Origin: a virus
Reading direction: 5' to 3' (one strand)
Length of the DNA: 64,000 nt
IMG/VR virus record: IMGVR_UViG_3300025133_000027
Location: 96,001 to 160,000 of that record
Below the pieces are notes generated by a model that worked only from the letters and a program-made list of their open reading frames with translations, was not told the DNA's origin and searched no databases. Below are positions 21,969 to 53,959 of the stretch, piece after piece. The first letter of the stretch is position 1, and each line of letters starts with the position of its first letter. Both the position numbers and the translations under genes were made by a program.

Positions 21969-23804
21969 ATGAGTACAATCGTAGAAGCATTAACTCGTGA
22001 TGTTGTACATACAGACCGTAAGGCAGAAGGCGCAGCTCTCATCAAGAAATGGGAGAAAGTCGGCTTGCTAGAAGGTCTTTCAACAGAGCGAAGCAAAATT
22101 AACATGTCGGTTCTATTAGAGAACCAAGCTAAGGAACTTCTTCGTGAAGCTTCCTCAATGAGTGCCGGTGACGTAGAAGGTTTCGCATCAGTTGCGTTCC
22201 CAATCGTCCGTAGGGTATTCGGTGGTCTTATTGCAAACGAGCTAGTCTCGGTTCAACCAATGAGTCTTCCATCTGGTCTTATCTTCTTCCTAGACTTTGT
22301 CTACAGTGGTAACACACCTGAGAAACTACACAACGGCGCAGTTGCCGGTGCATCACTATTCGGTGGTGGCGTAGTTGGTAAGGGAATCACTGGTGGTGTT
22401 GACCTTTCAGGTGATAACGCTGAGACTTCTTTTTATGGCCTTAACAACGGCTTTTCAACTGCTACAGGTAGTATTAATGCGGGTGAAGCAGACACTAACG
22501 TCCAGAATGTCGCTCTCCTTGGAACAGAGACTCTTGTTAGCGATCTATCAGCTCTTGACAAGAAAGTTCTTCGTTATGATCCTGATGTTCTAGGTTCAAC
22601 ACCAAGCGATATTATCGCTGCTGTAGTTGTTACCCTATCTACTGCTGAGATGGCTCAGATTGATGGTAGCAACTTAGTTACTATCGACCTAGTATCTTCA
22701 AGTACAACATCCGACGTTCGTGTTCCTGTTGACGGAGCTCTTGGAGCTACTGAGACTAAGGTTATTCGTAGATTAACTCACAAGGGTGCCTGGGATGCTA
22801 CAGCAACTACACTTTCAGATGAAGATACGAAGATTACTTTTTATCTACAATCCACTACTGCTGGTGGATTGGTTGCTGCTAATGTTGCTGGCAACCCTGG
22901 CTTAGGCAATACACTTAAGTTCTCACGTAAGGATTCGTGGGGTCAGGGTAACTCAGTAGGTTCAGTTCTAGCCGAACTTCTAGTCCAAGAAGGGGCGGGT
23001 TCTAGTTCGGTAGCTGGTGATGAAAAAGATGGTCACAACCGTACCATCTCAGAAATCGACATTAAGCTTGACTCTATCTCGGTAGACGTTAAGACTAAGA
23101 AGTTGAAGGCTAAGTGGACTCCTGAGCTTGCTCAAGACATCAACGCTTACCACAACATCGATGCTGAAGTTGAGCTAACTGGTATTCTTTCAGAGCACGT
23201 TGCTCTTGAAATCGACCAAGAAATCCTTAACGAGCTCGTTTCCGGTGGAACTGGCGGAACTCTTTACTGGAGTCGTCACGCTGGTAACTTCTTGAACCGT
23301 GAAACTGGTGCATCTGTTGTATCAGCTACTGCACCACCTGACTTCACAGGTAACGTGTCAGAATGGTACGAGACTCTTATTGAGACAATCAATGATGTGT
23401 CTGCACGTATCCACAGAAAGACACTTCGCGGTGGAGCTAACTTCCTAGTAACCTCACCTGAAATTGCTAACATTCTTGAGTTCACTAGTGGATTCAGAGC
23501 AACTGTAAACATGGAAGACCTCAAGGGTGGCTCCGTTGGTGCAGAGAAGGTTGGTTCACTTTCACGCAAGTGGGATGTGTATGTTGACCCTTACTTCTAC
23601 CGTAACGTAATTCTGGTAGGACGTAAAGGCAAGTCATTCCTAGAGTCTGGCTTTGTATACGCACCTTACGTGCCACTACAGACTACACCTACTATCTTCG
23701 GAACAGAGGACTTCGTACCACGCAAGGGTATGATGACTCGTTACGCCAAGAAGATGGTTCGTCCTGACATGTATGGCCTTGTTGTAGTGCAAGACTTAGT
23801 ATAA
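21969..23804 (+). CDS. Major capsid protein (T4 gp23-like) with a large central insertion
   Basis: LLENQ, VSVQPMSLPSGLIF, KLKAKWTPELAQD, EIDQEI, YAPYVPL and MTRYA motifs. Confidence 0.96.
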   Translation: MSTIVEALTRDVVHTDRKAEGAALIKKWEKVGLLEGLSTERSKINMSVLLENQAKELLREASSMSAGDVEGFASVAFPIVRRVFGGLIANELVSVQPMSLPSGLIFFLDFVYSGNTPEKLHNGAVAGASLFGGGVVGKGITGGVDLSGDNAETSFYGLNNGFSTATGSINAGEADTNVQNVALLGTETLVSDLSALDKKVLRYDPDVLGSTPSDIIAAVVVTLSTAEMAQIDGSNLVTIDLVSSSTTSDVRVPVDGALGATETKVIRRLTHKGAWDATATTLSDEDTKITFYLQSTTAGGLVAANVAGNPGLGNTLKFSRKDSWGQGNSVGSVLAELLVQEGAGSSSVAGDEKDGHNRTISEIDIKLDSISVDVKTKKLKAKWTPELAQDINAYHNIDAEVELTGILSEHVALEIDQEILNELVSGGTGGTLYWSRHAGNFLNRETGASVVSATAPPDFTGNVSEWYETLIETINDVSARIHRKTLRGGANFLVTSPEIANILEFTSGFRATVNMEDLKGGSVGAEKVGSLSRKWDVYVDPYFYRNVILVGRKGKSFLESGFVYAPYVPLQTTPTIFGTEDFVPRKGMMTRYAKKMVRPDMYGLVVVQDLV

Positions 23805-39489: not shown

Positions 39490-39492
39490 ACA

Positions 39493-40632
39493 ATGATATC
39501 AAAAGCAAACAATAAATCCGGGCCTAAAGAGTTCTATAAAAATAGAGTTAAGTTTGAAGAGTCTGTTGATAAGACACAGCAAATAGATTTATGGAAAGAA
39601 ATCCCGCTATATGGAAAAATAAATACTATTGGGACATCTGTTGTGGTAAGGGAAAATAAATTATCTTTATTCTCGGCAGATAGTCAAAATGTTCATGGAT
39701 TACTAGATTTTGCAGCAGATGCTTTTTTAGCTTTGAAGGCTGAGTATGATTCTTTTTCTAATCGAGGTCTTTTAAATCAAAATTCATTATTTGGAGTAAA
39801 ACTCATCCCAAAATTAGGATGGGTTAGCGCTAAAACAAGATATTCAAGTTACATAACAGAATACTACAATATAATGATGCAGAAATATCTGGCAAAGAAC
39901 GCTTTTAGTGACAACCTTGTAGACTATCCCTCTTTCGTTTCAGGGGTTGAATCTTATATCTTAGATAACAATAACCCTTTTACTAGGCATGGATTTCACG
40001 AATCTAACTTTAATCATAGCCTTACATCTGGCTTGTCAATTGAGTTCGAAACGGTAGCAGATGTAACAGATGCTATTAGGGAAGAATGGTTCACTGATCC
40101 AAACTTTAATTTCTTTAAGAATCTTTGTGTAAGACATGGGTTCAAAGTTAACAGAGGCTTGCCTTGGAGAATCACTTTTGATATAAGGTCAAAACTATCT
40201 ACTCCTTATATTGTTTCGAGGAACAAAAATATACCACAGGAGTTTACCTCAGCGATAGAGTATGTATTTAAGACTTATTACCAAGATTTATTAACCAGTG
40301 ACATTTTTAAAGAATTCAAATTCTTGCTAGGAAGAACGTATGATATATTCAGATATCAATTCCCTCTGTATGGTGAGAATAAGAAAAGAATCAATAATCA
40401 AGATGTGTTTACAGACCTTGACTACTTTGAACTTTATGGTAGAATAAGAAACCAAGAAAGAAAAGAAGAAATTAGTAAGAAAGAAATAAGTTCTATATAT
40501 AAAAACTCTAAACTAGAAAGTAAAGATTATATAGCTAAGAAAGTTCTAGAATATATAGAGCTAAAAACAGGCACAATTGGATACAGACGGAAGACAGCGA
40601 ATTTGATCAACTTGCAGAGAAAGTTGATCTAG
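39493..40632 (+). CDS. Hypothetical protein at the end of the tail module
   Basis: 379 aa ORF. Confidence 0.6.
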   Translation: MISKANNKSGPKEFYKNRVKFEESVDKTQQIDLWKEIPLYGKINTIGTSVVVRENKLSLFSADSQNVHGLLDFAADAFLALKAEYDSFSNRGLLNQNSLFGVKLIPKLGWVSAKTRYSSYITEYYNIMMQKYLAKNAFSDNLVDYPSFVSGVESYILDNNNPFTRHGFHESNFNHSLTSGLSIEFETVADVTDAIREEWFTDPNFNFFKNLCVRHGFKVNRGLPWRITFDIRSKLSTPYIVSRNKNIPQEFTSAIEYVFKTYYQDLLTSDIFKEFKFLLGRTYDIFRYQFPLYGENKKRINNQDVFTDLDYFELYGRIRNQERKEEISKKEISSIYKNSKLESKDYIAKKVLEYIELKTGTIGYRRKTANLINLQRKLI

Positions 40633-40640
40633 GATAGACT
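40612..40640 (+). promoter_or_regulatory. Sigma70-type promoter opening the replication module
   Basis: TTGCAG-17 nt-TAGACT upstream of the GAGGTG SD. Confidence 0.45.
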
Positions 40641-40663
40641 TATTCTCACAAATAGAGGTGAAA

Positions 40664-41836
40664 ATGAGCTTTCAAGTTTTAGAAACAAGTAAAAAATGTG
40701 CAACGATATATAAAGATGATAAATTACATACAAGAATCTTTCCAAAAAACCTAGATGCTACTTGGTCTCCACACTGTGAGATGCCATTAGACGTGTTATA
40801 TGCAAAACACTATGTGGCAGGGCTCTCAATCGAAGAAGTCACGCCAGAGAACCTCCTAGGCCCCTTGAAGAAGGCATCTGATAAGATGCAGGCCTGTGCG
40901 AAAGCATTGGTAAGCTCAAAAGTAAACTTAACAGATAATTGTCTTCATGAAGTCATACCTTTTAGAATTTTAAAAGAGTTTTATGACCTTAAAAATCAAG
41001 TTGTCGATCATGTTATTGAGTCAAGGGAGCAACCAAAGAATTATCAATTCCTGGTAGACTTAGATCTCTTACTGCAAGAAATGGCTAAACAAGAGTTAAA
41101 TCTTAAAAGAGTTCGAACTCTTATGTTGCCAACTAGATCAGACAAGATCAAAGCAACAAAGCTCGTTAAGGGACCCAACAAGGTCTTGTATAAAATGAAT
41201 GCTTCGAAAACTGGGAGGCTTACTTTACATGAAGAAAGTTTCCCTATTCTTAATTTAAAGAAGAATCTCAGAACTGTAATATATCCAAAAAATGATTTAT
41301 TTCTAGAATTGGATTTTAATGCTAGTGAAGTAAGAACTCTTTTGGCTTTATCCGGTATTGAACAGCCAGGAATAGATATTCATGAGTGGAATATTCTGAA
41401 TATTTTCAAAGGAAATACAGATAGGGCCGAAGCAAAGAGTAAGTTCTTCTTCTGGTTATTTAATCCAGAAGCAGTAAATCTTGCCATAGAGAAATTCTAT
41501 AGTAAGAAGATAGTTGACAATTACTACCAAGATGGTATGATAGTGACACCTTTCCACAGAAAGATTCCGTCAGATGATTTTCACGCACTAAATTACTTAG
41601 TGCAGAGCACTGCATCTGATAACTTTTTAACACAAGCTCTAAAATTACATAAGTATCTAAATAAGAAACGCTCGTTCGTGTCATTGTTGATGCACGATGC
41701 TATCCTAATAGACTTATCGTATGAAGAGATATCGGATCTTGAGGAAATTGTGGATATATTCTCTAAAACTACTCTTGGTAAGTTTAAGATAAACAAGTCC
41801 ATTGGTAAGAATTACGGAGAAATGAAAGCAGTATGA
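40664..41836 (+). CDS. Truncated family A DNA polymerase (polymerase domain only)
   Basis: SKTGRLT; motif A LDFNASEVR; motif B RAEAKSKFF; NYLVQSTASD; motif C LMHDAILID. ATG 40664 follows an SD. Confidence 0.8.
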   Translation: MSFQVLETSKKCATIYKDDKLHTRIFPKNLDATWSPHCEMPLDVLYAKHYVAGLSIEEVTPENLLGPLKKASDKMQACAKALVSSKVNLTDNCLHEVIPFRILKEFYDLKNQVVDHVIESREQPKNYQFLVDLDLLLQEMAKQELNLKRVRTLMLPTRSDKIKATKLVKGPNKVLYKMNASKTGRLTLHEESFPILNLKKNLRTVIYPKNDLFLELDFNASEVRTLLALSGIEQPGIDIHEWNILNIFKGNTDRAEAKSKFFFWLFNPEAVNLAIEKFYSKKIVDNYYQDGMIVTPFHRKIPSDDFHALNYLVQSTASDNFLTQALKLHKYLNKKRSFVSLLMHDAILIDLSYEEISDLEEIVDIFSKTTLGKFKINKSIGKNYGEMKAV

Positions 41837-42633
41837 AAACAATAATAGGATTAGGAAAAGCAGGTTGTTCAACAGCAAGGCTCTTCAAAGGCAACATGTA
41901 TGATGTACAAACGATAGATACATCAAATGCAGATGTTCTTATTGAAGAAGTCGACACAATTGAGGCCTATGAAAAAGCAGCAGCCTCGATGAGCTCATTA
42001 ACGACAGAGGATGAAGTCTATTTTATTCTAGCAGGTGGGGGAAAGATTGCTGGAGCTTCTTTATCAATATTGGAAAAGATTAAAGATAAGAAAATTACAG
42101 TAGTGTATATAAAACCTGATATCGGGCTGTTAAATGACCACGAAAAACTCAGCGAAAGGCTCATTTACAAGGTCTTGCAGGAATTCGTTAGATCAGGTAT
42201 GATTCATGGGTTGGTTCTGGCAAGTAATTCGCACATAGAGAAGCAATTAGGCGGAATAGGATTTAATGATTATTATCATCTTATAAACGAAAGAATAGCA
42301 AAAACTCTACAGATGTGTGATTATTTGTCACAAGCAAAATCTATAATTGGAGAATTGAGAGAACCTTCTGATTATAGCAGGATTGGAACAATAGGTGTCC
42401 GTGAAGGTGGAAAAGATTACCTTCTTTTCCCTATTGACTTAATCCGAGAGAAACGGTATCTTTATGCCATACCAGAAGAGAAACTTGCAACACACAAGAC
42501 TCTTCTGTCAGAAATTAAAGAGGTATTAGAAGTTGGCAAAGAGGCCATCAAGATATCATATAAGGTCGTGTCCACCACATATAAGGACACACAAGTTTTT
42601 GTTCAATGTTATTCAAACAAGGTTCAAGATTAA
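41833..42633 (+). CDS. Divergent tubulin/FtsZ-like GTPase-domain protein
   Basis: T1 loop IIGLGKAGCS; degenerate signature LAGGGKIAG; VYIKP; LVLASN; YHLINE. Confidence 0.65.
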   Translation: MKTIIGLGKAGCSTARLFKGNMYDVQTIDTSNADVLIEEVDTIEAYEKAAASMSSLTTEDEVYFILAGGGKIAGASLSILEKIKDKKITVVYIKPDIGLLNDHEKLSERLIYKVLQEFVRSGMIHGLVLASNSHIEKQLGGIGFNDYYHLINERIAKTLQMCDYLSQAKSIIGELREPSDYSRIGTIGVREGGKDYLLFPIDLIREKRYLYAIPEEKLATHKTLLSEIKEVLEVGKEAIKISYKVVSTTYKDTQVFVQCYSNKVQD

Positions 42634-42659
42634 ACAAAAACACCCAAAACAAGTATAAT
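42631..42659 (+). promoter_or_regulatory. Sigma70-type promoter for ssb
   Basis: TAAACA-17 nt-TATAAT. Confidence 0.45.
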
Positions 42660-42718
42660 ACTAATCGCGGAGAGGGAATATTTGCTCTCTCTATAATTTT
42701 AAAAAGGAAAAAAATAAT

Positions 42719-43438
42719 ATGGCTTTAGACTTACGAAAAATGAAATCAAAACAACAGAATCTCAACGGCGGAGGGTTTCAATGGAAGCCTCAAGACGGTG
42801 AGAATCTGATTCGCATCGTGCCGGTGCCAGACGGAGACCCCTTCAAGGAAGTCCATCTGCACTATAACATTGAAAGAGGTGGTGTCCTCTGCCCAAAGAG
42901 AAACTTTGGTGAAGAGTGCCCTGCTTGTGACTATGCTTCATCACTATTTAACAGTGGCGATGAGGAGAGCCGAAAGGCAGCAAAAGATATCGTGGCAAAA
43001 AAGAGATTCTACTCTCCTGTCATTGATAGAAACGATGCAAACGGAGGTGTCCGTTGGTATGCATATAGCAAGACAGTATATGAAAAAATGTTGAGCTTGG
43101 TTCTAAACCCTGATTATGGAGATATTACTGACCCTGAATCAGGAACTGACCTAAATATTACATACTCAAAGGGTGGAAAGGGTACGTTCCCATCAACTGA
43201 CGTGCAGCCGAAGCGAAAATCGTCTATTCTCTCGAAAGACGAGGCTCTATTGACTGAAATTGCTGAAAAAGATTATGATATCTTTAACAACTTCAAGCGA
43301 AAGAGCCCTGAAGAGATCAAGGAATTGCTAGATGTTTACCTACTAGGCGATGATAACGCCGAAGAAGGAGGTGATGTATCACCGGCAAATGAAAAATCGT
43401 TGGTAGACGAAGTTTACCAGAAGCTTAGAAAAAGCTAA
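42719..43438 (+). CDS. Single-stranded DNA-binding protein (gp32-like)
   Basis: IRIVP; His/Cys zinc ligands (HY...CPK...CPAC); GDITDPESGTDL; acidic tail; next to RecA. Confidence 0.8.
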   Translation: MALDLRKMKSKQQNLNGGGFQWKPQDGENLIRIVPVPDGDPFKEVHLHYNIERGGVLCPKRNFGEECPACDYASSLFNSGDEESRKAAKDIVAKKRFYSPVIDRNDANGGVRWYAYSKTVYEKMLSLVLNPDYGDITDPESGTDLNITYSKGGKGTFPSTDVQPKRKSSILSKDEALLTEIAEKDYDIFNNFKRKSPEEIKELLDVYLLGDDNAEEGGDVSPANEKSLVDEVYQKLRKS

Positions 43439-43453
43439 GGGTCTAGCATAGTG

Positions 43454-43496
43454 AGTTCCAAGCTATGTTGAAATATATGTAGCTTGGAACTTTTTT
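43454..43496 (+). terminator. Intrinsic terminator between ssb and recA
   Basis: AGTTCCAAGCTA...TAGCTTGGAACT 12-bp stem followed by a T run. Confidence 0.8.
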
Positions 43497-43513
43497 ACAA
43501 TAACGGAGTAGTG

Positions 43514-44641
43514 ATGGCAAGGGCTAAGAAAAAGAAAGAAGTAGTAAGAGGCAAGATAAGCACTGAACAACTAAGAGGCCTTCTTAATAAGAAGGCTGGT
43601 GAAACAATTGCTTATGACTTGGGAGCTAATAACCCTACTGATGTAGTGGATTGGATTCCTACAGGCGCGAGATGGTTAGACTCCATTATTTGCAAAGGCA
43701 AGTTGGCAGGTATTCCTGTTGGCAAAGTTTCTGAAATCGCAGGACTAACTGCGACAGGAAAGAGCTATATGGCTGCGCAGATTGCGGCTAATGCCCAGAA
43801 GAAAGGAATCGTCCCTGTTTACTTCGACTCAGAGTCAGCACTAGACTCTGACTTCTTAATTAATGCCGGATGTAACTTGGAAGAGTTGATTTACATCCAG
43901 GCAAGGTCTGTAGAATTCGTTCTAGAGACAATTGAGGATATTATGGCAGCTTCTGAGACGAGGCACTTATTTATCCTTGATTCCCTTGCCTTCACTCCTG
44001 CTGAGTCAGACATTGCTGGTGATTATAATCCGCAATCTTCGATGGCAGTGAAGCCGCGAGTTATGGCCAAGGGTTTATCGAAATTGATAATTCCCTTGGC
44101 CAACACTCAGTCAACATTTTTGATTCTAAATCAACTTAAAACAAACATCTCGTCAAATCTCTTTGATATGAAGATGAATCCATATTTTACTCCTGGTGGT
44201 AAAGCAACCGCCTACTCTTACTCATTAAGAATCTGGCTAACTGGGAAACAAACGAAAGACTCAGCTATCTATGATGATAAGGGATATAAAGTCGGATCTG
44301 AGATTAAAGCTCGGCTAAAGAAGTCGAGATTTGGAACTGAAAACAGGACCTGTGAGTTCAAGATCTTATGGGGCGCTGACTCGGTTGCTATCCAAGATGA
44401 AGAGTCCTGGCTTGAGGCAATAAGGCCTTCGGATCAGATTAAAACAGGAGCCTGGAACACTCTCTTCTATCAAGACGGCACTGAAAAGAAGTTCCAAAGA
44501 GCTACTTGGCTTAAAGAATTAGAAGACCCTCTATTCAGAGCCGAAGTGTTAAGAATCATGGATGAAGAAGTCATCCAGAAGTTTGAGTCAAGAGAAGGAA
44601 ATGCTTCCGACTATTATGACTCACAAGATTCAGAGGAATAA
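43514..44641 (+). CDS. recA: RecA/UvsX recombinase
   Basis: WIPTG..LD, GIPVGK..EIAG..ATGKS, YFDSE, ILDS, LNQL and TPGGKA motifs. Start set at the ATG after GGAG. Confidence 0.92.
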   Translation: MARAKKKKEVVRGKISTEQLRGLLNKKAGETIAYDLGANNPTDVVDWIPTGARWLDSIICKGKLAGIPVGKVSEIAGLTATGKSYMAAQIAANAQKKGIVPVYFDSESALDSDFLINAGCNLEELIYIQARSVEFVLETIEDIMAASETRHLFILDSLAFTPAESDIAGDYNPQSSMAVKPRVMAKGLSKLIIPLANTQSTFLILNQLKTNISSNLFDMKMNPYFTPGGKATAYSYSLRIWLTGKQTKDSAIYDDKGYKVGSEIKARLKKSRFGTENRTCEFKILWGADSVAIQDEESWLEAIRPSDQIKTGAWNTLFYQDGTEKKFQRATWLKELEDPLFRAEVLRIMDEEVIQKFESREGNASDYYDSQDSEE

Positions 44642-44643
44642 CA

Positions 44644-44742
44644 GTGAATTACTATAAGGTAACTCTGGTTTATGACGGAAAAGAGTTCCATGGTGGGCGA
44701 CTCTTGGAAGAACTTAAGAGAATGGCAGAAGGCAATGAATAA
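44644..44742 (+). CDS. Possible 32-aa peptide (GTG start)
   Basis: GAGGA SD; its stop overlaps ATG 44735 of the next ORF. Confidence 0.35.
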   Translation: MNYYKVTLVYDGKEFHGGRLLEELKRMAEGNE

Positions 44743-45013
44743 TTTAAAGAACCAAGGTCCTTTGAAAAAAGTTGGCGATACTCTTGGGCACTTCATAGGC
44801 GAAAATTATGTAACCATAGAAGGAAAACGTTACCCACTCTTTAAGGATGCACGACCACACCAGTTTAGCTCAATAGCATTCCCGATAATAACAAGAGCAT
44901 TTCCACCACAACTGAGAAACAGCCTTGTTTCAGTTCAACCAATGAGTGTTCCATCTGAACAGATTTTTAAAATGGATTTCAAATACACAAACAAGGAAGA
45001 AGACGATGAGTGA
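44672..45013 (+). CDS. Mini-protein carrying a fragment of the major capsid protein (start may be 44735)
   Basis: FSSIAFPIITRAFPPQLRNSLVSVQPMSVPSEQIFKMDFKY is 24/41 identical to MCP residues 72-112. Confidence 0.75.
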   Translation: MTEKSSMVGDSWKNLREWQKAMNNLKNQGPLKKVGDTLGHFIGENYVTIEGKRYPLFKDARPHQFSSIAFPIITRAFPPQLRNSLVSVQPMSVPSEQIFKMDFKYTNKEEDDE

Positions 45014-45260
45014 ACGAGATTTTGTATACTGGCTTCAAGGATATCTTGAAGTTAGTAATGCTAATGAATTAGATGAGTCACAGCTACAAATAGTTAAGGA
45101 TCACCTAGCCTTGGTCTTAAAAAAAGTAACACCAGAATATGATGGGAATAGGTTCGTAAACAACCTCGCTAGACTAAGAGGGGAAAGAGATGCGAAGCTT
45201 TGTAGCAACGCAGAACTAGAGGAAATAGGTAATGCTCTTCCAGCTCAATTAACATGCTAA
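45006..45260 (+). CDS. Small phage hypothetical protein
   Basis: MSERDFVYWLQGYLE start (ATG 45006) overlapping the previous stop. Confidence 0.6.
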   Translation: MSERDFVYWLQGYLEVSNANELDESQLQIVKDHLALVLKKVTPEYDGNRFVNNLARLRGERDAKLCSNAELEEIGNALPAQLTC

Positions 45261-45269
45261 AGGAACCGA

Positions 45270-46232
45270 ATGAACCAACCAAATAGAATATTAATAATTG
45301 ATGCATTAAACATGTATCTAAGAAGCTTCATTATCAATCCCACACTGACACCATCTGGCGACCCTGCCGGTGGTGTTGTTGGTTTTATGAAGAGTTTACA
45401 AAAAACAATTAGGGAGATGCAACCAGATCAGGTGTATATTTGCTGGGATGGTCAGAGAGGCACCAATAACCGAAAGAACTTGAATAAAGACTATAAAGAA
45501 GGGCGTAAGCCCATTCGATTCAATCGAAGATTTGCAGAACTCAACGAAGAACAAGAGCTCCAAAATAAAATCTGGCAACAGCAGAGACTTATTGAGTATC
45601 TTAATGAAATGCCAGTTGCACAGTTGCTATTTGATGAAGCGGAGGCTGATGATGTTATCTCAGCCATCGTAGCAGATACTCCTGGCGTTGAAAAAGTGAT
45701 TATTTCCATGGATAAAGACTTTTATCAACTCTTAGACAAAGAAACTATCATTTATAGCCCAGTTCAAAAGAAGTTTGTGTCGGAAGTTTCTCTTTTGGAA
45801 GAAGAAAACATACACCCAGCCAATTTTGCACTAGCAAAAGCAATTGTTGGAGACAAATCTGACAATATTCTTGGTGTTCAAGGTGTTGGAATGAAGACTC
45901 TAACCAAAAGATTCCCAATGCTAGCGGATCCTAACGCCCATACCATCTCGGAATTGCTAATGAAAGCAAAAACAGTCGAGAAACCTTTAAAAATACACAC
46001 GAATATTATTGAAAGTGAAGATCGAATACGAGAAAACTATAAAGTCGTGCAGTTGCATATCCCTTCCATTTCCCCAACAAGTAGGGGTACTATTAGGGGG
46101 GTACTAGGTGCGTATCCATACATGTTAAACAGGACCGAGATTACGAAAATGATGATTCAAGACGGGTTTACCGATCTTAACTGGAATCCATTATTCGCAA
46201 ATCTACAAAGAATAAGCTTAAATAACAAATAG
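45270..46232 (+). CDS. 5'-3' exonuclease/flap endonuclease (T4 RNase H / PolI N-domain-like)
   Basis: IIDALN, CWDG, YKEGR, EADDVI, SMDKDFYQL and GDKSDNILGVQGVG motifs. Confidence 0.92.
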   Translation: MNQPNRILIIDALNMYLRSFIINPTLTPSGDPAGGVVGFMKSLQKTIREMQPDQVYICWDGQRGTNNRKNLNKDYKEGRKPIRFNRRFAELNEEQELQNKIWQQQRLIEYLNEMPVAQLLFDEAEADDVISAIVADTPGVEKVIISMDKDFYQLLDKETIIYSPVQKKFVSEVSLLEEENIHPANFALAKAIVGDKSDNILGVQGVGMKTLTKRFPMLADPNAHTISELLMKAKTVEKPLKIHTNIIESEDRIRENYKVVQLHIPSISPTSRGTIRGVLGAYPYMLNRTEITKMMIQDGFTDLNWNPLFANLQRISLNNK

Positions 46233-46505
46233 GAATAATATGATTAAATATATTGATGAGAGCGATAAAGAACACCCAGAAGTTCATTGGGGGGTTTATG
46301 GTGATGTTAAGACTAACGAAATAGTTGTTATCGCTACTCTTGAAGGAAAAAAATACGAGAAACGGGAAAAAAGTCCAATTCTTCATCCTGCCATGATTGA
46401 TCGAATTTTTGGCATAGACATAGCAGACGGAGATGTTGCTGCTAGGTTATCAAATGAAATTTATGATGAAAGTCTTCAGACTCACTTAGAAAATAACAAA
46501 TAGGA
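46220..46505 (+). repeat. 15-bp direct repeat flanking a small gene
   Basis: AAATAACAAATAGGA at 46220-46234 and 46491-46505. Confidence 0.85.
46240..46503 (+). CDS. Small hypothetical protein
   Basis: 87 aa with AGGA SD. Confidence 0.6.
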   Translation: MIKYIDESDKEHPEVHWGVYGDVKTNEIVVIATLEGKKYEKREKSPILHPAMIDRIFGIDIADGDVAARLSNEIYDESLQTHLENNK

Positions 46506-46511
46506 GGCCAT

Positions 46512-47927
46512 ATGAGCCATGAATTCGAGAAAGACTTTTCAAAATTTGGAAAGCTTTTCCAAGAGAAATTGGTTAAAATCATGTTCTATGAAAGACCATT
46601 TTTTAACCAATTTATGGAAGTGTTAAACATTAACTTCCTGGAAGTAAAATATCTACAGAAATTTGTAGAACTAATGTTTGATTATAAAAATGAATACGGA
46701 AGCCACCCAACAGAAGACGCCATGACAATGCTCATGGCTTCGTCATTAGATGGTGAAAATAAAGTCCTAGATACGCAAATAAGGAACTTCTATGCAAGGA
46801 TCCTATCTGCTTCCGGGGAAGAGTCTGACGCGGAATATGTGAAAAACACTGCTTTGGATTTCTGCAAGAAGCAAAAACTAAGAGAAGCTATGATTAAGTC
46901 AGCAGGACTTTTGAAGTCTTCCTCTTTTGATGAGATTGCTTCACTTGTAAATGATGCTTTAAAACTAGGAATGTCTAATGATTTTGGTCATGATTATGTA
47001 GCTGATTTTGAAGAACGATATAAGACAAGTTTTAGAAATCAAATCACAACTGGATGGGAACTTATCGATAAAATCACCAAAGGTGGACACGGAGCAGGTG
47101 AGTTGGGAGTAGTTATTGCACCAACAGGTGCCGGAAAAAGCATGTGTTTGGTGCATTTAGCGACCAAAGCCCTTCTTGAGGGCAAGAATGTAGTGTATTA
47201 TACATTAGAACTTTCTGAGGCTGTTGTTGGAAAGAGATTTGACTCTTGTCTTACTCAGGTTCATCTTGGAGATCTGGAGCTTTTCAAGGAAGATATTAAG
47301 GAACAAGTCCTTGGCAACGCATCTCTTGGTAATCTTATTATTAAGCAATATCCAACAAAAAAGGCGACAACCTCAACAATTAAGAATCACCTTGAAAAAG
47401 TAAGAAGTTCAGGCACAGATATTGAATTCGTATGTGTTGACTATGGCGATCTTTTAAGATCAGTGTCTTCGTATAAAGAAAAAAGACACGAACTTGAAGG
47501 CATTTATGAAGAACTAAGAGGTCTTGCAGTTGAGTTTGCTTGTCCTTTCTGGACTGCTAGCCAGACAAATCGCGGTGCCTTGAATCAAGAGGTAATCACT
47601 ATGGAAGCAATCTCGGAGGCATATAACAAATGTTTCCCTGCTGACTTCATTATCACTATTTCTAGAACGATCGAAGATAAAAATAAAAACGCAGGAAAAA
47701 TGTTTATTGCTAAAAATAGAAATGGGCCAGATGGGCTTATTTTTGAACTATTTATGGATACCTCTAACGTTACTATTGAAGTTTTGGAGCCAGTTGAGAC
47801 AACTATCGAGTCAACTACAACCAAGGCTACTGCCGAGAGAAAGACGGTTTTGGCGGCAAAGTATAAAGAATATCTTGAGAGCAAAAAAGAAAAAGTTGGA
47901 AATCAAAAAGAATCTAACTTTAACTAA
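46512..47927 (+). CDS. Replicative DNA helicase (DnaB/gp41 family)
   Basis: Walker A APTGAGKS; YYTLE; CVDYGD; SQTNR; KNRNG. Confidence 0.92.
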   Translation: MSHEFEKDFSKFGKLFQEKLVKIMFYERPFFNQFMEVLNINFLEVKYLQKFVELMFDYKNEYGSHPTEDAMTMLMASSLDGENKVLDTQIRNFYARILSASGEESDAEYVKNTALDFCKKQKLREAMIKSAGLLKSSSFDEIASLVNDALKLGMSNDFGHDYVADFEERYKTSFRNQITTGWELIDKITKGGHGAGELGVVIAPTGAGKSMCLVHLATKALLEGKNVVYYTLELSEAVVGKRFDSCLTQVHLGDLELFKEDIKEQVLGNASLGNLIIKQYPTKKATTSTIKNHLEKVRSSGTDIEFVCVDYGDLLRSVSSYKEKRHELEGIYEELRGLAVEFACPFWTASQTNRGALNQEVITMEAISEAYNKCFPADFIITISRTIEDKNKNAGKMFIAKNRNGPDGLIFELFMDTSNVTIEVLEPVETTIESTTTKATAERKTVLAAKYKEYLESKKEKVGNQKESNFN

Positions 47928-47930
47928 ACC

Positions 47931-47959
47931 TTGTTATTAAGTCGTAATGGGGGTAAACT
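47931..47959 (+). promoter_or_regulatory. Sigma70-type promoter for the RNR gene
   Basis: TTGTTA-17 nt-TAAACT upstream of AAGGAG SD. Confidence 0.4.
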
Positions 47960-47984
47960 AGTCCATATAGAATAAGGAGTATAA

Positions 47985-49841
47985 ATGGAATTATCAGCAG
48001 AAATATTAAGCAATATTACAACGCATATGAAATATGCAAAGTATTTGCCAATGGAATTAAGAAGAGAAAATTGGCAGGAACTTGTTTCTCGCAATGAAGA
48101 GATGCATGTTCGAAAATATCCACAAATTAAAAGCGAAATTAGAGAAGCTTATAAGTTTGTTTATGACAAGAAGGTGTTGCCTTCAATGAGAGCGATGCAA
48201 TTCTCAGGTAAGCCAATTGAGATTACGCCAAGTCGTATATTTAATTGCGCTTATTTGCCAGTAGATGATTGGAGAGCATTTTCAGAGACAATGTTTTTAC
48301 TTCTTGGAGGAACAGGAGTTGGTTATTCGGTGCAAAAACACCATATTGAAAAATTACCAGATATTATTCGCCCAAATGAAAAAAGAACCAGAAGATATCT
48401 AATTGGAGACTCCATCGAGGGTTGGGCTGACGCTGTAAAGATTTTAATGAGAAGTTACTTCTTTGGGGGCTCGAAAATTCGATTTGACTTTTCTGATATT
48501 AGAAAGAAAGGAGCTAGGCTTGTCACTTCAGGAGGAAAAGCACCAGGACCTCAACCTCTCAAAGAGTGTTTATTAAAGATTGAAGGAATATTAGATGAAA
48601 AACAAAATGGTTCAAAACTTACAACACTGGAGACACACGATATTGTCTGTTATATTGCAGATGCAGTTCTTGCTGGCGGGATACGAAGAGCAGCTCTTAT
48701 TTCACTTTTTAGCGCTGATGATGATGATATAATTTCTTGTAAATCAGGAAATTGGTGGGAACTAAATCCTCAAAGAGGCCGAGCAAATAACTCGGCAGTC
48801 TTGTTAAGGCACAAAATAAATGAGCCTTTCTTTCTAAAGCTTTGGGAACGTATTAAGAATTCTGGTTCTGGCGAGCCTGGGATTTATTTTTCAAATGATA
48901 AAGATATGGGAACCAATCCTTGTTGTGAGATCTCGTTGAAGCCTCATCAATTTTGTAACCTTACAGAAGTAAATGCTAGTGATATTGTTTCACAGGAAGA
49001 TCTTAACGAGAGAGTCCGAGTCGGAGCTTTTATCGGCACACTTCAAGCTGGATATACCGATTTTCACTATTTACGTGAAAAATGGAAACGTAATACAGAA
49101 AAAGAAGCTCTAATCGGTGTATCTATGACAGGTATTGCTTCTGGTGAGGTTATCAAGCTTGATATGAAAGAGGCAAGCCAGGAAGTCAAGAAAGAGAATG
49201 CAAGAGTTGCAAATTTGATTGGCATCAATCGGGCAGCAAGAACGACTTGTGTAAAACCTGCGGGAACAACAAGTCTGGTTTTGGGAACTTCCAGCGGAAT
49301 CCATGCTTGGCATGATGACTTCTATATCCGAAGACTTCGTGTTGGAAAGAATGAGGCAATTTATCATTACCTAGTAACAAACCACCCTTCTTTGATAGAA
49401 GATTGCGAAATGAGACCACATGATACTGGTATTATCAAAGTACCAATCAAAGCACCTAGCGGTGCTATCACTAGAAGAGAGTCGGCTCTGCATCTTCTTG
49501 AGAGAGTCAAAAGAGTAAGTCTTGAATGGGTTCGAACGGGACACCGAAAAGGTTCAAATACAAATAACGTTTCTGCCACAATCTCAGTAAGAGAGCATGA
49601 GTGGGACGAAGTTGGTAATTGGATGTGGAATAATCGAAATTCTTATAATGGACTTTCAATTCTTCCGTTTAGTGACCATAGTTATGTTCAGGCTCCTTTT
49701 GAATCAATTACAGAACTAGAGTATAATGCCCTGTATACTAATCTTCAAAAAATTGATCTAAATTATGTCTTAGAACATGGAGATAACACTGATTTAAGTG
49801 GAGAAATTGCATGTGGAGCTGGTGGTTGTGAAGTAATTTAA
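47985..49841 (+). CDS. nrdJ: Class II (B12-dependent) ribonucleotide reductase
   Basis: FNCAY, RRAALI, TNPCCEI, FCNLTEVN, VKPAGT and C-terminal CGAGGC. No small-subunit gene is adjacent. Confidence 0.88.
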   Translation: MELSAEILSNITTHMKYAKYLPMELRRENWQELVSRNEEMHVRKYPQIKSEIREAYKFVYDKKVLPSMRAMQFSGKPIEITPSRIFNCAYLPVDDWRAFSETMFLLLGGTGVGYSVQKHHIEKLPDIIRPNEKRTRRYLIGDSIEGWADAVKILMRSYFFGGSKIRFDFSDIRKKGARLVTSGGKAPGPQPLKECLLKIEGILDEKQNGSKLTTLETHDIVCYIADAVLAGGIRRAALISLFSADDDDIISCKSGNWWELNPQRGRANNSAVLLRHKINEPFFLKLWERIKNSGSGEPGIYFSNDKDMGTNPCCEISLKPHQFCNLTEVNASDIVSQEDLNERVRVGAFIGTLQAGYTDFHYLREKWKRNTEKEALIGVSMTGIASGEVIKLDMKEASQEVKKENARVANLIGINRAARTTCVKPAGTTSLVLGTSSGIHAWHDDFYIRRLRVGKNEAIYHYLVTNHPSLIEDCEMRPHDTGIIKVPIKAPSGAITRRESALHLLERVKRVSLEWVRTGHRKGSNTNNVSATISVREHEWDEVGNWMWNNRNSYNGLSILPFSDHSYVQAPFESITELEYNALYTNLQKIDLNYVLEHGDNTDLSGEIACGAGGCEVI

Positions 49842-49850
49842 GTTAATTGG

Positions 49851-49886
49851 ATCCAAGGAGAATCACACATGTGATTCTCCTTGGAT
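49851..49886 (+). terminator. 16-bp hairpin after nrdJ (probable terminator)
   Basis: ATCCAAGGAGAATCAC-ACAT-GTGATTCTCCTTGGAT; the U tract is weak. Confidence 0.7.
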
Positions 49887-49891
49887 TATTG

Positions 49892-49901
49892 ACTATTTAT
49901 A
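49892..49901 (+). promoter_or_regulatory. Putative late promoter ACTATTTATA
   Basis: Exact motif right after the hairpin. Confidence 0.65.
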
Positions 49902-49925
49902 ATAAGAAAGGGGACATAAATATAA

Positions 49926-50378
49926 ATGGAAAATCTTCAAGCTAAAATAATTTTACAAACACTAACAGACCTAGGTTTAAAAATAGATAAGTTTCAAGAA
50001 AACTTAGCATCAGATAGAGAAAGGATCGTTGCACTAGAGGTTGAAGAGCGTAGCAATCAAGAAAACAAGAAAACTTTTAATGAAATCACTTGGCCAAATT
50101 TAGAGGAAGAAGTTAGAGGGATAAAAGACAGGCTTGTTAAGATAGAAAAAGAGACTGTTTCACTAAGAAAAATCGAAAATATTGAAAGTAAACTAACAAC
50201 CGTACTAACTAAAATAGAAATTTGGATTCCAAGAATGGAAAAAATTGAAGAAAAATTACCTAAGCTTGATGAAGTGAATTGGAAAATGAAGTTAATCTGG
50301 GCAGGTTCAGCAGCAGGTATATCATTTTTAACAGCTAGTGTTGTTGCTATTTTTCTTAAGATTGCTGGGTTAGGATAG
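49926..50378 (+). CDS. Late coiled-coil protein with a C-terminal TM helix (holin/XhlA-like candidate)
   Basis: Heptad-rich region followed by LIWAGSAAGISFLTASVVAIFL. Confidence 0.55.
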   Translation: MENLQAKIILQTLTDLGLKIDKFQENLASDRERIVALEVEERSNQENKKTFNEITWPNLEEEVRGIKDRLVKIEKETVSLRKIENIESKLTTVLTKIEIWIPRMEKIEEKLPKLDEVNWKMKLIWAGSAAGISFLTASVVAIFLKIAGLG

Positions 50379-50379
50379 C

Positions 50380-50426
50380 TTGACGTTTAAACCTCTTCGA
50401 TGTATGATTGGTGCATCTTGAGGAGG
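50380..50426 (+). promoter_or_regulatory. Sigma70 promoter overlapped by an SD-sequestering hairpin
   Basis: TTGACG-17-TATGAT. CCTCTTC/GATGTA pairs with TGCATC/GAGGAGG. Confidence 0.7.
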
Positions 50427-50430
50427 ATAC

Positions 50431-51498
50431 ATGAAAGAGGCTTTGACCTATGATGACTTATTATTACAACCACAATATTCGGATATTAAATCTCGCAAAG
50501 AGATTAATCTAAAACCTACAGATGTAAAACTAGGCGAAGATAGACAATTAGCAATACCAATTATTAGTAGTCCCATGGATACTGTAACTGAGGCTGATAT
50601 GTGTAATGCTATGGATGCTGCTGGTGGTCTTGGGATTATTCATCGTTATAATACAGTAGAAGAGCAAACACGGATAGTGGGAAAGGTCGAAGATTCGGTA
50701 TACTATGATGACTGGAATAAACCTATTACACCAAATTATGCTTGTGCGATCGGAGCAACTGGTGACTATTATGAACGTTTATGTTCTTTATATATGCGAG
50801 GTTGTCGAACTTTCTGCATAGATATCGCTCACGGTCATCACATTGTCATGAAAGAAGCATTAGCGAAAATTAAACTACATCCTGCTAGGAGTTATTTTAC
50901 AGTAATTGCTGGTAATGTAGCAACTTCGGAAGGTGCTTGGGATTTGCAGTCGTGGGGAGCTGATATCGTTAAGGTTGGAATCGGTGGCGGATCTATCTGT
51001 TCAACGAGAATCGAGACAGGACACGGAGTTCCTAACGTAGAAGCTCTATCGCAAATTGCAGATATGAGAAAAATACACAAGCTAGATTTTGGAATTATCG
51101 CTGACGGTGGAATTAAAAGCGCTGGTGATGTAGTTAAGGCACTTGCGCTTGGAGCTGACTATGTAATGCTAGGTTCGATGCTAGCAGGAACTGATGAAAC
51201 GCCTGGGATAATCCATACTTCAAACAGTGGTAGAAAAATTAAAGAATATAGAGGGATGGCAAGCCCGGAATCACAACTTGCTTGGAAAGGCTCAGTCTCC
51301 TCAGAAGAGGGGATTGCAACTTATATACCAGCAAAAGGACCTGTCTCTAGGGTCTTGGAACATATTGACAAAGGACTACGTTCTGGGTTATCCTATACGG
51401 GAGCTAGGACAATTAAAGAACTTCAAACAAAAGCAAAGTTCATTCGACAATCGAACTCCTCCAAGGTGGAGAGTTCGACACACATTTTAAACAAATAA
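50431..51498 (+). CDS. IMPDH/GMP reductase family protein without CBS domains (probably GMP reductase)
   Basis: SSPMDTV, DIAHGH, AGNVAT, GIGGGSICSTR, IADGG and YRGMAS motifs. Confidence 0.85.
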   Translation: MKEALTYDDLLLQPQYSDIKSRKEINLKPTDVKLGEDRQLAIPIISSPMDTVTEADMCNAMDAAGGLGIIHRYNTVEEQTRIVGKVEDSVYYDDWNKPITPNYACAIGATGDYYERLCSLYMRGCRTFCIDIAHGHHIVMKEALAKIKLHPARSYFTVIAGNVATSEGAWDLQSWGADIVKVGIGGGSICSTRIETGHGVPNVEALSQIADMRKIHKLDFGIIADGGIKSAGDVVKALALGADYVMLGSMLAGTDETPGIIHTSNSGRKIKEYRGMASPESQLAWKGSVSSEEGIATYIPAKGPVSRVLEHIDKGLRSGLSYTGARTIKELQTKAKFIRQSNSSKVESSTHILNK

Positions 51499-51507
51499 GG
51501 AATATTA

Positions 51508-51789
51508 ATGAGTATTACAAACGCAGTGACGATTTCACCAGAATCAACAAAGAAAGAGCGAGCAATTGACTATATCAAGAGCATCTATGCCCTGGATCAA
51601 GCGATTGAGCCCTATCAATCACAAAAGAAAGAGCTTCGAAAGAGCTATGTTTCTAACGGATGGCTTGATGCTGAAGAGATTAAGAGTGCAATGAGAGTAT
51701 ATAGGCTCCTAAAGATTGATGCAGACTTTGAACAGCTTGCTGACTTCTATGAAGCAACTAAGGGAAATGTAACAGAAGAGGACGAATAA
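51508..51789 (+). CDS. DsbA/GapR (DUF2312)-like dsDNA-binding protein
   Basis: YIKSIYALDQAIEPYQSQKKELRKSYVSNGWLD..IKSAMRVYRL matches the helical pattern of that family. Confidence 0.5.
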   Translation: MSITNAVTISPESTKKERAIDYIKSIYALDQAIEPYQSQKKELRKSYVSNGWLDAEEIKSAMRVYRLLKIDADFEQLADFYEATKGNVTEEDE

Positions 51790-52058
51790 TGAAGATTTAT
51801 CCACAAAATGGATGGTTGCTTCTCAAAAGAGCCCTTAGCGATCATGATTTACAAACGCTAGAATACACGAGTATGTTGCCACCATTAGAAAGGGTAGACC
51901 ATTTTACTGTCGTTGGGGCTCCTGAAGACAATGAGGGCTATCATGTTGGTAATAAGGTTCTAGTATTGACACATGCAATCGAAGAACTAGAAATAGAGGG
52001 CGACCTTTATTACTTTGCTAAGGTTCAATCTATTATGGGGGTCTTACTCAATGACTGA
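51789..52058 (+). CDS. GroES/gp31-like co-chaperonin
   Basis: IYPQNGWLLLK...VVGAP...VGNKVL...EIEGDLYYF...IMGVL follows the GroES strand pattern. Confidence 0.6.
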   Translation: MKIYPQNGWLLLKRALSDHDLQTLEYTSMLPPLERVDHFTVVGAPEDNEGYHVGNKVLVLTHAIEELEIEGDLYYFAKVQSIMGVLLND

Positions 52059-53957: not shown

Positions 53958-53959
53958 GA

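What the first reader, a model, noticed from the sequence alone, without database searches (positions are those of the whole stretch)
44672..45013. Stand-alone capsid 'Gol-peptide' mini-gene in the replication module: candidate decoy against capsid-sensing defence, or EF-Tu ligand
Seen: between recA and the 5'-3' exonuclease is a 92-113 aa ORF. Its segment 44864-44986 (FSSIAFPIITRAFPPQLRNSLVSVQPMSVPSEQIFKMDFKY) is 24/41 identical to residues 72-112 of this phage's own MCP (FASVAFPIVRRVFGGLIANELVSVQPMSLPSGLIFFLDFVY, 22182-22304), and the DNA shares GTTCAACCAATGAGT-n-TTCCATCTG. No other part of the capsid fold is kept. The ORF is intact, its stop overlaps the next start, and it lacks the late motif, so it is probably expressed before the MCP. 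Established: the equivalent stretch of T4 gp23 (about residues 94-122, ...VRRAIPNLIAFDICGVQPMNSPTG, recalled from memory) is the Gol peptide, which binds EF-Tu and activates the Lit abortive-infection protease. Capsid proteins also trigger other sensors such as CapRel. Inference: retaining exactly this epitope, with changes in its middle (GGLIA to PPQLR), suggests an early non-activating mimic that titrates a capsid sensor, modulates EF-Tu, or poisons assembly of competing phages.
Basis: partly seen in the sequence, partly recalled or inferred. Interest (0 to 1): 0.88.

Follow-up and report, generated by a model that had tools for sequence, protein, structure and literature searches.

The report
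Stand-alone capsid N-arm (Gol) mini-gene
A small gene among the DNA-replication genes of an uncultured marine T4-like phage really does encode a protein that carries only the most conserved 42-residue stretch of T4-type head proteins (the "Gol" stretch); it belongs to a widespread, undescribed family of such mini-proteins whose job is still unknown.

Summary
Residues 65-106 of ORF 44672-45013 match residues 72-113 of the phage's capsid protein (24/42, E 5e-14) and pass Pfam Gp23's cut-off on profile positions 3-49 only. Through the capsid protein this stretch maps to T4 gp23 residues 91-131, which contain the Gol region.

Corrections:
- The conserved gene is 44735-45013 (92 aa). The longer frame exists only because a neighbouring gene was deleted.
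- The copy is old. It is no closer to this phage's own capsid protein than to others, and its synonymous sites are randomised.
- In a sister phage (L083) it is the second gene of a two-gene cassette. The first gene carries another capsid-like piece and is deleted here.

It is not a one-off. An exhaustive search found a full-length orthologue at 52% identity. It also found dozens of clusters of small viral proteins with the same sharply bounded segment, behind unrelated leaders and before short, often acidic tails. This scan had already noted the same family in at least 18 other genomes. I found no paper describing it.

Models suggest a small beta carrier displaying a disordered peptide. Recent constraint is weak (dN/dS 0.42 against 0.09 for neighbours). 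A decoy, EF-Tu or assembly role remains untested.

The parts
44735..45013 (+). Conserved mini-gene, 92 aa: leader, capsid N-arm/Gol-like segment, acidic tail
   Evidence: Same start and stop as in the sister locus L083 (P0002, 91 aa, about 90% identical) and aligned to the orthologue P0007 (85 aa, 52% identical). Pfam Gp23 31.6 bits on residues 43-89.
44672..44734 (+). In-frame 5' extension specific to this phage (possible starts at ATG 44672 and ATG 44690); not conserved
   Evidence: No start codon is available upstream in L083. The extension lies in sequence left by a deletion. Gene callers elsewhere chose 113 aa or 107 aa forms.
44762..44836 (+). Leader (residues 10-34), predicted as a four-strand beta meander; contains the invariant TIEGKRYPLF
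   Evidence: AlphaFold2 model, pLDDT about 70 in this part. Ten consecutive invariant residues across the three family members.
44864..44989 (+). 42-residue capsid N-arm/Gol-like segment (residues 44-85 of the 92-aa protein)
   Evidence: 24/42 identical to capsid residues 72-113. Equivalent to T4 gp23 91-131. Modelled as mostly coil, pLDDT about 55-70.
44990..45010 (+). Acidic tail NKEEDDE
   Evidence: The last four residues (EDDE) are invariant in the window, L083 and P0007. Many other family members have short acidic tails.
44702..44742 (+). Remnant of the 3' end of a deleted upstream gene (ORF-A of L083), in another frame; its stop TAA overlaps the mini-gene's ATG
   Evidence: Window 44702 onwards aligns to L083 from 10001. 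It encodes LEELKRMAEGNE against ORF-A's LEELNKMAEGNE.
44658..44701 (+). 44 bases that stand in place of 330 bases of L083 (the body of ORF-A): the deletion scar
   Evidence: BLASTN of window 44601-44760 against L083 9616-10060.
45006..45260 (+). Downstream 84-aa gene, start overlapping the mini-gene's stop; unknown function (PHROG 28500 and 35763)
   Evidence: Present in L083. Absent from the same slot in 80 more distant relatives.
21969..23804 (+). Major capsid protein, 611 aa; its residues 72-113 (22182-22307) are the full-length counterpart of the segment
   Evidence: Pfam Gp23 239 bits. Matches T4 gp23 structures.
43484..44641 (+). UvsX/RecA recombinase, left border of the variable slot
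   Evidence: Pfam RecA and PHROG 97. The distance from uvsX to the exonuclease gene varies from about 0 to 3.8 kb among 80 relatives.
45270..46232 (+). 5'-3' exonuclease (RNase H-like), right border of the slot
   Evidence: Pfam 5_3_exonuc_N and 5_3_exonuc.

Best explanation
It is a real accessory gene (92 aa, 44735-45013) of an undescribed family of small phage proteins. Each member joins a small leader ("carrier") to the same sharply bounded, about 42-residue N-arm/Gol segment of T4-type capsid proteins, followed by a short tail that is often acidic.

Shown:
- The homology to the capsid segment.
- The gene model.
- A full-length orthologue and a wide family.
- The position in a hypervariable slot of the replication module.
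- The loss here of a sister gene that carried another capsid-like piece.

Inferred:
- The segment is an unfolded peptide held out by the carrier. The protein would work by mimicry: it would occupy whatever normally binds this stretch on newly made or unassembled capsid protein.
- It is probably made with the replication genes, before the capsid protein.
- The partner is not identified. Candidates are a host factor that handles nascent capsid protein (EF-Tu, the chaperonin, or a defence sensor that watches them) or the head-assembly machinery (scaffold core, portal, neighbouring capsid subunits).
- In this lineage the gene looks only weakly constrained.
For: Homology.

Age and maintenance:
- Synonymous sites are randomised, yet 24/42 residues and an open frame are kept.
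- The sister copy differs by an in-frame one-codon deletion, not a frameshift.

Family:
- P0007 (85 aa) is 52% identical over the whole length, including the leader TIEGKRYPLF and a tail ending EDDE.
- In the top 150 representatives, 46 proteins have a non-capsid leader of at least 12 residues and a tail of at most 35 residues. Their segment has the same borders and the consensus FxxxAFPxVRRVFPxLIANELVSVQPMSxPSGxIFYLDYKYG.
- The ESM Atlas holds clusters of 57-204 small viral proteins with PF07068.
- Complete members lie on long phage contigs and are named only "hypothetical protein".

Architecture:
- Model of this protein: leader in beta strands, segment mostly coil.
- Model of the unrelated-leader member P0011: carrier pLDDT 75-85, segment about 30.

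Paired pieces:
- L083 ORF-A residues 6-32 match capsid residues 359-387; 0 of 500 shuffles reach the score.
- ORF-A shares KRYPxFxD with the mini-gene's leader; 1 of 500 shuffles.
- In the unrelated contig L092, two paralogues share one carrier (E 6e-10). One ends in the N-arm segment, the other in a tail like ORF-A's.

Timing: no promoter-like or terminator-like site separates it from uvsX, and the cTATTTATA motif is absent from the whole replication block.

Biology of the stretch, from papers:
- It is the most conserved part of gp23, and a 29-residue piece binds EF-Tu domains II and III (PMC3014915).
- Residues before L106 are disordered and inside the unexpanded head. They are thought to touch the scaffold core, and later form the N-arm, which contacts neighbouring capsomers and the portal whisker (PMC9546572).
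Against: - No partner is shown and no expression data could be obtained.
- Both models are of low overall confidence (pLDDT 64 and 60), so "disordered" is a weak inference.
- Recent constraint is weak: 10 non-synonymous against 6 synonymous changes versus L083, dN/dS 0.42, not separable from 1 (p = 0.095).
- The helical half departs from the family consensus (R10T, V12A, L16Q, A18R). A highly conserved Gly is Glu here, and the RR-V-F motif is lost in L083.
- The gene is absent from the relatives checked at 60-66% UvsX identity, including a complete 184-kb genome. It is therefore dispensable.
- For known sensors that respond to this stretch (Lit with EF-Tu), a free copy would be expected to trigger them rather than block them.
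- An earlier check within this scan priced the mimicry reading for the family at 13 in 100.
Confidence: 0.4

Rival explanations
1. Decaying leftover. A cassette of capsid-derived fragments landed in the variable uvsX-exonuclease slot. It is being lost piece by piece, and the surviving frame has no function in this phage.
For: - The upstream cassette gene has already been deleted here.
- dN/dS is 0.42 and not separable from 1.
- Consensus residues of the segment are replaced here, and more so in L083.
- The gene is absent from more distant relatives.
- The slot turns over quickly.
Against: - The frame is intact in all copies seen. The indel is in frame.
- The stretch SLVSVQPMSVPS and the leader TIEGKRYPLF show no change between window and L083, and their core residues are invariant in P0007.
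- A 52% orthologue of the same length, with the same leader and tail, exists.
- Synonymous sites against any capsid gene are saturated while the protein motif is kept.
- Other small accessory ORFs nearby have similar dN/dS, 0.2-0.67.
Confidence: 0.15
2. Decoy against capsid-sensing defence. Made early, it binds a host sensor that recognises this stretch of nascent capsid protein, without activating it.
For: - The segment equals the Gol region that triggers Lit through EF-Tu (PMC3014915).
- Many defence systems are now known to sense capsid proteins: CapRel, CmdTAC, Avs7/Dsr1, Avs8, Avs10 (PMC9712102, PMC11618068, bioRxiv 10.64898/2026.01.04.697583).
- The gene lies outside the late module.
- The departures from consensus in the helical half could make a non-activating variant.
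Against: - The host, and any sensor in it, are unknown.
- The free Gol peptide activates Lit; it does not block it (PMC3014915).
- Avs-type sensors are reported to recognise conserved core folds, which a 42-residue piece lacks (same preprint).
- I found no paper reporting such a decoy.
Confidence: 0.13
3. EF-Tu or chaperonin ligand. The displayed segment binds the host factor that normally handles the capsid protein's N-terminus, and so tunes translation or folding capacity before late gene expression.
For: - T4 Gol binds EF-Tu domains II and III. This region is the most conserved in gp23, which led to the proposal that all T4-type capsid proteins bind EF-Tu (PMC3014915).
- The N-terminus of gp23 is reported to direct proteins to GroEL (Snyder and Tarkowski 2005; seen only as a title in the reference list of PMC3012670).
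- The family keeps exactly this segment.
Against: - EF-Tu is far too abundant to be titrated by a minor early protein (6-10% of the proteome, per the Avs7 preprint).
- The residues corresponding to the T4 core (RRAIPNLIAF) are the ones changed here.
- No binding data exist.
Confidence: 0.12
4. Head-assembly factor or head-loaded protein. The segment docks where the capsid protein's own N-arm docks (scaffold core, portal whisker, neighbouring subunit). The protein would then regulate or poison assembly, possibly of co-infecting relatives, or be carried into the head.
For: - In T4 the equivalent residues lie inside the unexpanded head, probably on the scaffold core. They later form contacts between capsomers, and Met98 contacts the portal whisker (PMC9546572).
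- L083's ORF-A carries the piece equivalent to the return linker strand of T4's I-domain linkers (capsid residues 359-387). By that homology the cassette may have encoded two neighbouring parts of one capsid substructure.
Against: - The gene sits with the replication genes, not the head genes.
- A T4-type head-targeting leader with an L/I-x-E cleavage site is not conserved: IGE here, ISE in L083, none in P0007.
- The segment is so conserved that a poison would hit the phage's own capsid as well.
Confidence: 0.18

Closest known systems
Gol region of T4 gp23 (Gol / Lit / EF-Tu exclusion system of prophage e14)
   Same: Homologous stretch. The segment maps to T4 gp23 91-131, which includes the 29-residue Gol region (PMC3014915). 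It is the most conserved part of T4-type capsid proteins.
   Different: Gol is an internal part of a 521-aa capsid protein and is defined by function (it binds EF-Tu and activates Lit). Here the stretch is a separate 92-aa gene product with its own leader and acidic tail. Several residues aligned to the T4 RRAIPNLIAF stretch are changed. Neither EF-Tu binding nor Lit activation has been tested.
T4-type major capsid and vertex proteins gp23/gp24 (Pfam PF07068, HK97 fold)
   Same: Scores above the Pfam cut-off. gp24 shows that capsid-gene paralogues can persist as separate genes.
   Different: Only 47 of the 376 profile positions are present. There is no A-domain, no P-domain sheet and no propeptide, so it cannot form a capsid subunit.
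Undescribed family of stand-alone N-arm mini-proteins (small viral "hypothetical proteins" with a PF07068 hit)
   Same: Non-capsid leader, the same segment borders, a short acidic tail, and a place outside the head module.
   Different: The leader type (KRYP-type) is rare: only the window's lineage, L083 and P0007 were found. The segment is among the more divergent in its helical half.
Phage proteins that act by mimicry or as dominant-negative fragments (general principle)
   Same: A conserved piece of a protein, expressed on its own, could compete for that piece's partner.
   Different: Published phage examples known to me mimic DNA or a signalling ligand, not the phage's own structural protein (my own knowledge). 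No competition has been shown here.

Membership tests
Pfam PF07068 Gp23 (T4-type major capsid protein) | Score above the curated cut-off | tested here: met
   31.0-31.6 bits against 24.4.
Pfam PF07068 Gp23 (T4-type major capsid protein) | Full HK97-type fold (most of the 376 profile positions; A- and P-domains) | tested here: not met
   Only profile positions 3-49 match. The protein has 92 residues. No other part of the capsid protein aligns.
T4 Gol peptide | Homology to gp23 residues about 93-122 | tested here: met
   Mini-protein to own capsid protein, and capsid protein to T4 gp23*, give T4 91-131.
T4 Gol peptide | Binds EF-Tu domains II and III | not testable with these tools
   Needs a binding assay.
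T4 Gol peptide | Activates Lit protease to cleave EF-Tu | not testable with these tools
   Needs an in vivo or in vitro cleavage assay. The host and any Lit-like protease in it are unknown.
Stand-alone N-arm mini-protein family (undescribed) | Leader without the capsid propeptide signature (W..LLEG, ENQ) | tested here: met
   Leader MNNLKNQGPLKKVGDTLGHFIGENYVTIEGKRYPLFKDARPHQ; classification.
Stand-alone N-arm mini-protein family (undescribed) | Segment borders F...D(F/Y)xY, followed by a short tail | tested here: met
   The tail is 6 residues by the classification (KEEDDE; NKEEDDE by the 42-residue segment border used in the parts list). The same borders hold in 46 family representatives.
Stand-alone N-arm mini-protein family (undescribed) | Encoded in a phage genome, outside the head-gene module | tested here: met
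   Between uvsX and the 5'-3' exonuclease gene. L092's member lies next to a DNA polymerase III alpha-like gene.
T4 internal proteins (head-targeting leader cut by the prohead protease) | Conserved N-terminal targeting leader ending in L/I-x-E | tested here: not met
   IGE (residues 21-23) here, ISE in L083, no such motif at the aligned place in P0007.

The most novel reading that the evidence does not exclude
T4-like phages carry a class of "peptide-display" proteins. Small carriers would present unfolded, highly conserved pieces of the phage's own structural proteins (capsid N-arm/Gol here; a second capsid piece in the sister gene) before late gene expression. This would pre-empt or blunt host surveillance of nascent capsid protein, for example EF-Tu/Lit-type or chaperone-based sensors.
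Probability: 0.13. Interest if true: 0.9.

Novelty: new variant of a known kind. Interest (0 to 1): 0.6.

Why it matters
The Gol stretch has been known for decades as the most conserved part of T4-type capsid proteins. It is also the trigger of a classic abortive-infection system, yet its normal partner and the reason for its conservation remain open.

Natural proteins that consist of little more than this stretch are ready-made probes. Pull-downs with them could identify what the stretch binds. The same proteins could show whether phages use pieces of their own structural proteins against host sensors or against competing phages.

This copy adds three things to the family picture:
- a corrected gene model;
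- a sister cassette that pairs two capsid-derived pieces;
- a case where one piece has been lost and the other is weakly constrained, which warns that not every member need be active.

Tried and rejected
- Co-fold of the mini-protein (alignment A4) with E. coli EF-Tu and GDP. The tool returned "no answer" (score 0.00, controls not run). This is neither for nor against binding. It used a stand-in host, and the partner's own fold was uncertain.
- Close or distant DNA relatives among deposited phages: none.
- tblastn of the mini-protein and of family member P0009 against 50,697 phage records hit only positions annotated as or consistent with full-length capsid genes. The one "hypothetical protein" checked, in Ralstonia phage RsoM2USA, is a 411-aa gene that I take to be the capsid gene. 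No cultured phage with a member was identified.
- IMG/VR and GTDB scans for the KRYP-type subfamily returned only capsid genes (L090, L091) or nothing.
- ORF-A of L083 has no relative besides itself and no Pfam hit.
- The resemblance of ORF-A's tail to the capsid spine helix is weak (13 of 500 shuffles reach the score; E 0.019 to the L092 paralogue). I treat it as suggestive only.
- Recent copy from the phage's own capsid gene: rejected.
- Other fragment-type mini-genes in this genome: none comparable by BLASTP.
- Cpn10/GroES-type gene in the phage: none by PF00166. This is uninformative, since T4 gp31 may not match that model.
- Many short database "proteins" with this segment are capsid genes cut by contig ends or by frameshifts (for example P0206, P0207, P0235). 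The raw count of 3162 short hits must therefore not be read as the family's size.

Full report
**What is there.** The window is part of a 176-kb IMG/VR virus record, 97% complete. It is a T4-like phage that other notes of this scan call marine. The relevant genes are:
- scaffold, 20668-21939;
- a 611-aa Gp23-family capsid protein, 21969-23804;
- a replication block: gp32 at 42719, UvsX at 43484-44641, a 5'-3' exonuclease at 45270-46232 and a DnaB-like helicase at 46512.

The ORF 44672-45013 lies between UvsX and the exonuclease. Its residues 65-106 align without gaps to capsid residues 72-113 (24/42, E 5e-14). Pfam Gp23 scores 31 bits against a cut-off of 24.4, on profile positions 3-49 of 376 only. 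The capsid protein aligns to T4 gp23* (mature numbering plus 65). The segment therefore corresponds to T4 gp23 91-131, which includes the 29-residue Gol region (PMC3014915).

**Gene model.** A close relative was recovered: L083, a 30.7-kb metagenome contig whose neighbouring proteins are 95-100% identical.
- In L083 the gene starts at the ATG equivalent to 44735 and encodes 91 aa (P0002).
- No start codon lies upstream of it there.
- The orthologue P0007 also begins near that point.

The conserved product is therefore 92 aa (44735-45013). The 113-aa frame exists only in this phage.

**A lost neighbour.** In L083 a 106-aa gene (ORF-A, 9721-10041) lies between UvsX and the mini-gene. Its stop overlaps the mini-gene's ATG (ATGAATAA).
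- In the window, 44 bases (44658-44701) stand where L083 has 330 bases. Only ORF-A's last 12 codons and stop survive, at 44702-44742.
- ORF-A residues 6-32 match capsid residues 359-387, the stretch that aligns with the return strand leading into the spine helix in T4 (E 5e-4; 0 of 500 shuffles reach the score).
- ORF-A's tail EKEIDAEILEEL resembles the start of the spine helix only weakly (13 of 500 shuffles).
- ORF-A shares KRYPxFxD with the mini-gene's leader (1 of 500 shuffles).
- ORF-A has no relatives in the databases.

The "stand-alone" gene is thus the survivor of a two-gene cassette. Each gene carried a different capsid-like piece behind a similar leader.

**Age and origin.**
- The segment and the capsid gene are 57% identical in DNA.
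- Of the 24 identical residues, 11 use the same codon, against 10.5 expected from codon usage.
- The segment is as close to other phages' capsid proteins (mean 23.2/42; 31 of 78 reach 24 or more) as to its own (24/42).

It is therefore an old gene, not a recent copy of the resident capsid gene. The capsid-like residues have been kept at protein level.

**Distribution.**
- Eighty IMG/VR relatives with 59-66% identical UvsX keep the order gp32, uvsX, exonuclease, helicase. The uvsX-exonuclease gap varies from about 0 to 3.8 kb, and none holds a relative of the mini-gene or of the next gene.
- Four of the five long relative records searched show only the capsid gene, including a complete 184-kb genome; the fifth (85% complete) shows no match at all.
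- This genome has no other comparable fragment-type mini-gene by BLASTP.

**A family.** An exhaustive phmmer search of 1.84 billion representatives gave 218 hits.
- The best, P0007 (85 aa, E 3e-19), is 52% identical over the whole length. It shares the leader (LK-VGDT-G-F, then TIEGKRYPLF) and a tail ending EDDE.
- Among the top 150, 79 are capsid proteins or their fragments.
- Forty-six have a non-capsid leader of at least 12 residues, the same segment borders (F...D(F/Y)xY) and a tail of at most 35 residues, which is often acidic.
- The leaders fall into several unrelated types.
- ESM Atlas clusters of 57-204 small viral proteins with PF07068 agree with this picture.
- Complete members lie on contigs of 12-318 kb and are named only "hypothetical protein".
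- Many short database hits are cut or frameshifted capsid genes, so raw counts mislead.
- On contig L092, a 118-aa member lies next to a paralogue with the same carrier (E 6e-10) but a different tail that resembles ORF-A's. A DNA polymerase III alpha-like gene lies about 1 kb downstream.

Notes of this scan report the same kind of gene in at least 18 other genomes. Another reader marked 44735-45013 in this genome. I found no paper describing the family.

**Selection.** All figures are window against L083, by the Nei-Gojobori method.

| Genes compared | Synonymous changes | Non-synonymous changes | dN/dS |
|---|---|---|---|
| Mini-gene | 6 | 10 | 0.42 |
| 19 neighbouring genes, pooled | 327.3 | 104.7 | 0.086 |
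| Other small accessory ORFs nearby | | | 0.2-0.67 |

- The mini-gene differs from its neighbours (Fisher p = 0.0017).
- It cannot be separated from neutrality (p = 0.095).
- One block (R54S, A55I, F56L, loss of P57) removes the RR-V-F motif in L083.
- The window's copy departs from the family consensus at R10T, V12A, L16Q, A18R, G32E and Y36K.
- SLVSVQPMSVPS and TIEGKRYPLF show no change between window and L083, and their core residues are invariant in P0007.

Long-term maintenance is clear. Present-day constraint in this lineage is weak.

**Structure.**
- AlphaFold2 with the family alignment gives pLDDT 64. The leader residues 10-34 form a four-strand meander (about 70), and the segment is mostly coil.
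- For P0011, which has an unrelated leader, the carrier is confident (75-85) and the segment is about 30.

This fits a folded carrier displaying an unfolded peptide, but confidence is low.

**Expression context.**
- No promoter-like or terminator-like site separates the gene from uvsX.
- The motif cTATTTATA lies 10-35 bases upstream of the scaffold/capsid genes and several other genes. It is absent between about 26.3 and 49.9 kb.

Co-transcription with the replication genes is an inference.

**Mechanism.** Published work gives this stretch two kinds of partner.
- Host EF-Tu, and with it the Lit protease. The chaperonin may be another, going by a paper title in the reference list of PMC3012670 (PMC3014915).
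- The head machinery. In T4 the equivalent residues lie inside the unexpanded head, probably on the scaffold core. After expansion they form the N-arm, which contacts neighbouring capsomers and the portal whisker (PMC9546572).

Many defence systems sense capsid proteins (PMC9712102, PMC11618068, bioRxiv 10.64898/2026.01.04.697583).

My best reading is mimicry of this stretch toward one of these partners (0.4 overall). None of the specific partners is favoured by data. A neutral leftover remains possible (0.15).

Noticed in passing
window 20635, 23879, 49894, 59313, 62251, 62709, 63656 (+ strand TATTTATA): The motif cTATTTATA lies about 10-35 bases upstream of several genes, including the scaffold gene. 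TATAAATA occurs 14 times on both strands against 4.9 expected, and most hits are this reverse form. It is absent from about 26.3 to 49.9 kb. It may be this lineage's late-type promoter.
   Followed up: partly
window 46240-46503: An 87-aa ORF between the exonuclease and helicase genes has no counterpart in L083, where those two genes are 8 bases apart. This is a second small indel of an accessory gene in the same block.
   Followed up: partly
window 35837-55051 against L083: Synonymous divergence between the two phages varies more than tenfold from gene to gene. For example gp32 is 0.36 and the exonuclease 0.37, against 0.07 for UvsX and 0.02 for the 84-aa gene. This suggests mosaic recombination between close relatives.
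   Followed up: no
L003-L082 (uvsX to exonuclease gap): The slot between uvsX and the 5'-3' exonuclease gene holds from about 0 to 3.8 kb of unrelated small genes in 80 relatives. It is a hotspot for accessory genes.
   Followed up: partly
L092:1231-1587 and L092:2094-2363: Two paralogues share one small beta carrier (E 6e-10). One ends in the capsid N-arm segment. The other ends in AQKVADEIDALILRDLEKMY, which resembles the tail of L083's ORF-A.
   Followed up: partly
window 21969-23804: The capsid protein (611 aa) has about 240 residues (roughly 113-355) between the two strands that flank T4's insertion domain. That is a much larger insert than in T4 gp23.
   Followed up: no
window 20668-21939: The scaffold-like protein has a run of GGMDDM repeats and long acidic tracts.
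   Followed up: no
window 45006-45260: The 84-aa protein coupled to the mini-gene matches PHROGs 28500 and 35763 (unknown function) over its first 45 residues only. It travels with the mini-gene in L083 and is missing from the slot in more distant relatives.
   Followed up: partly
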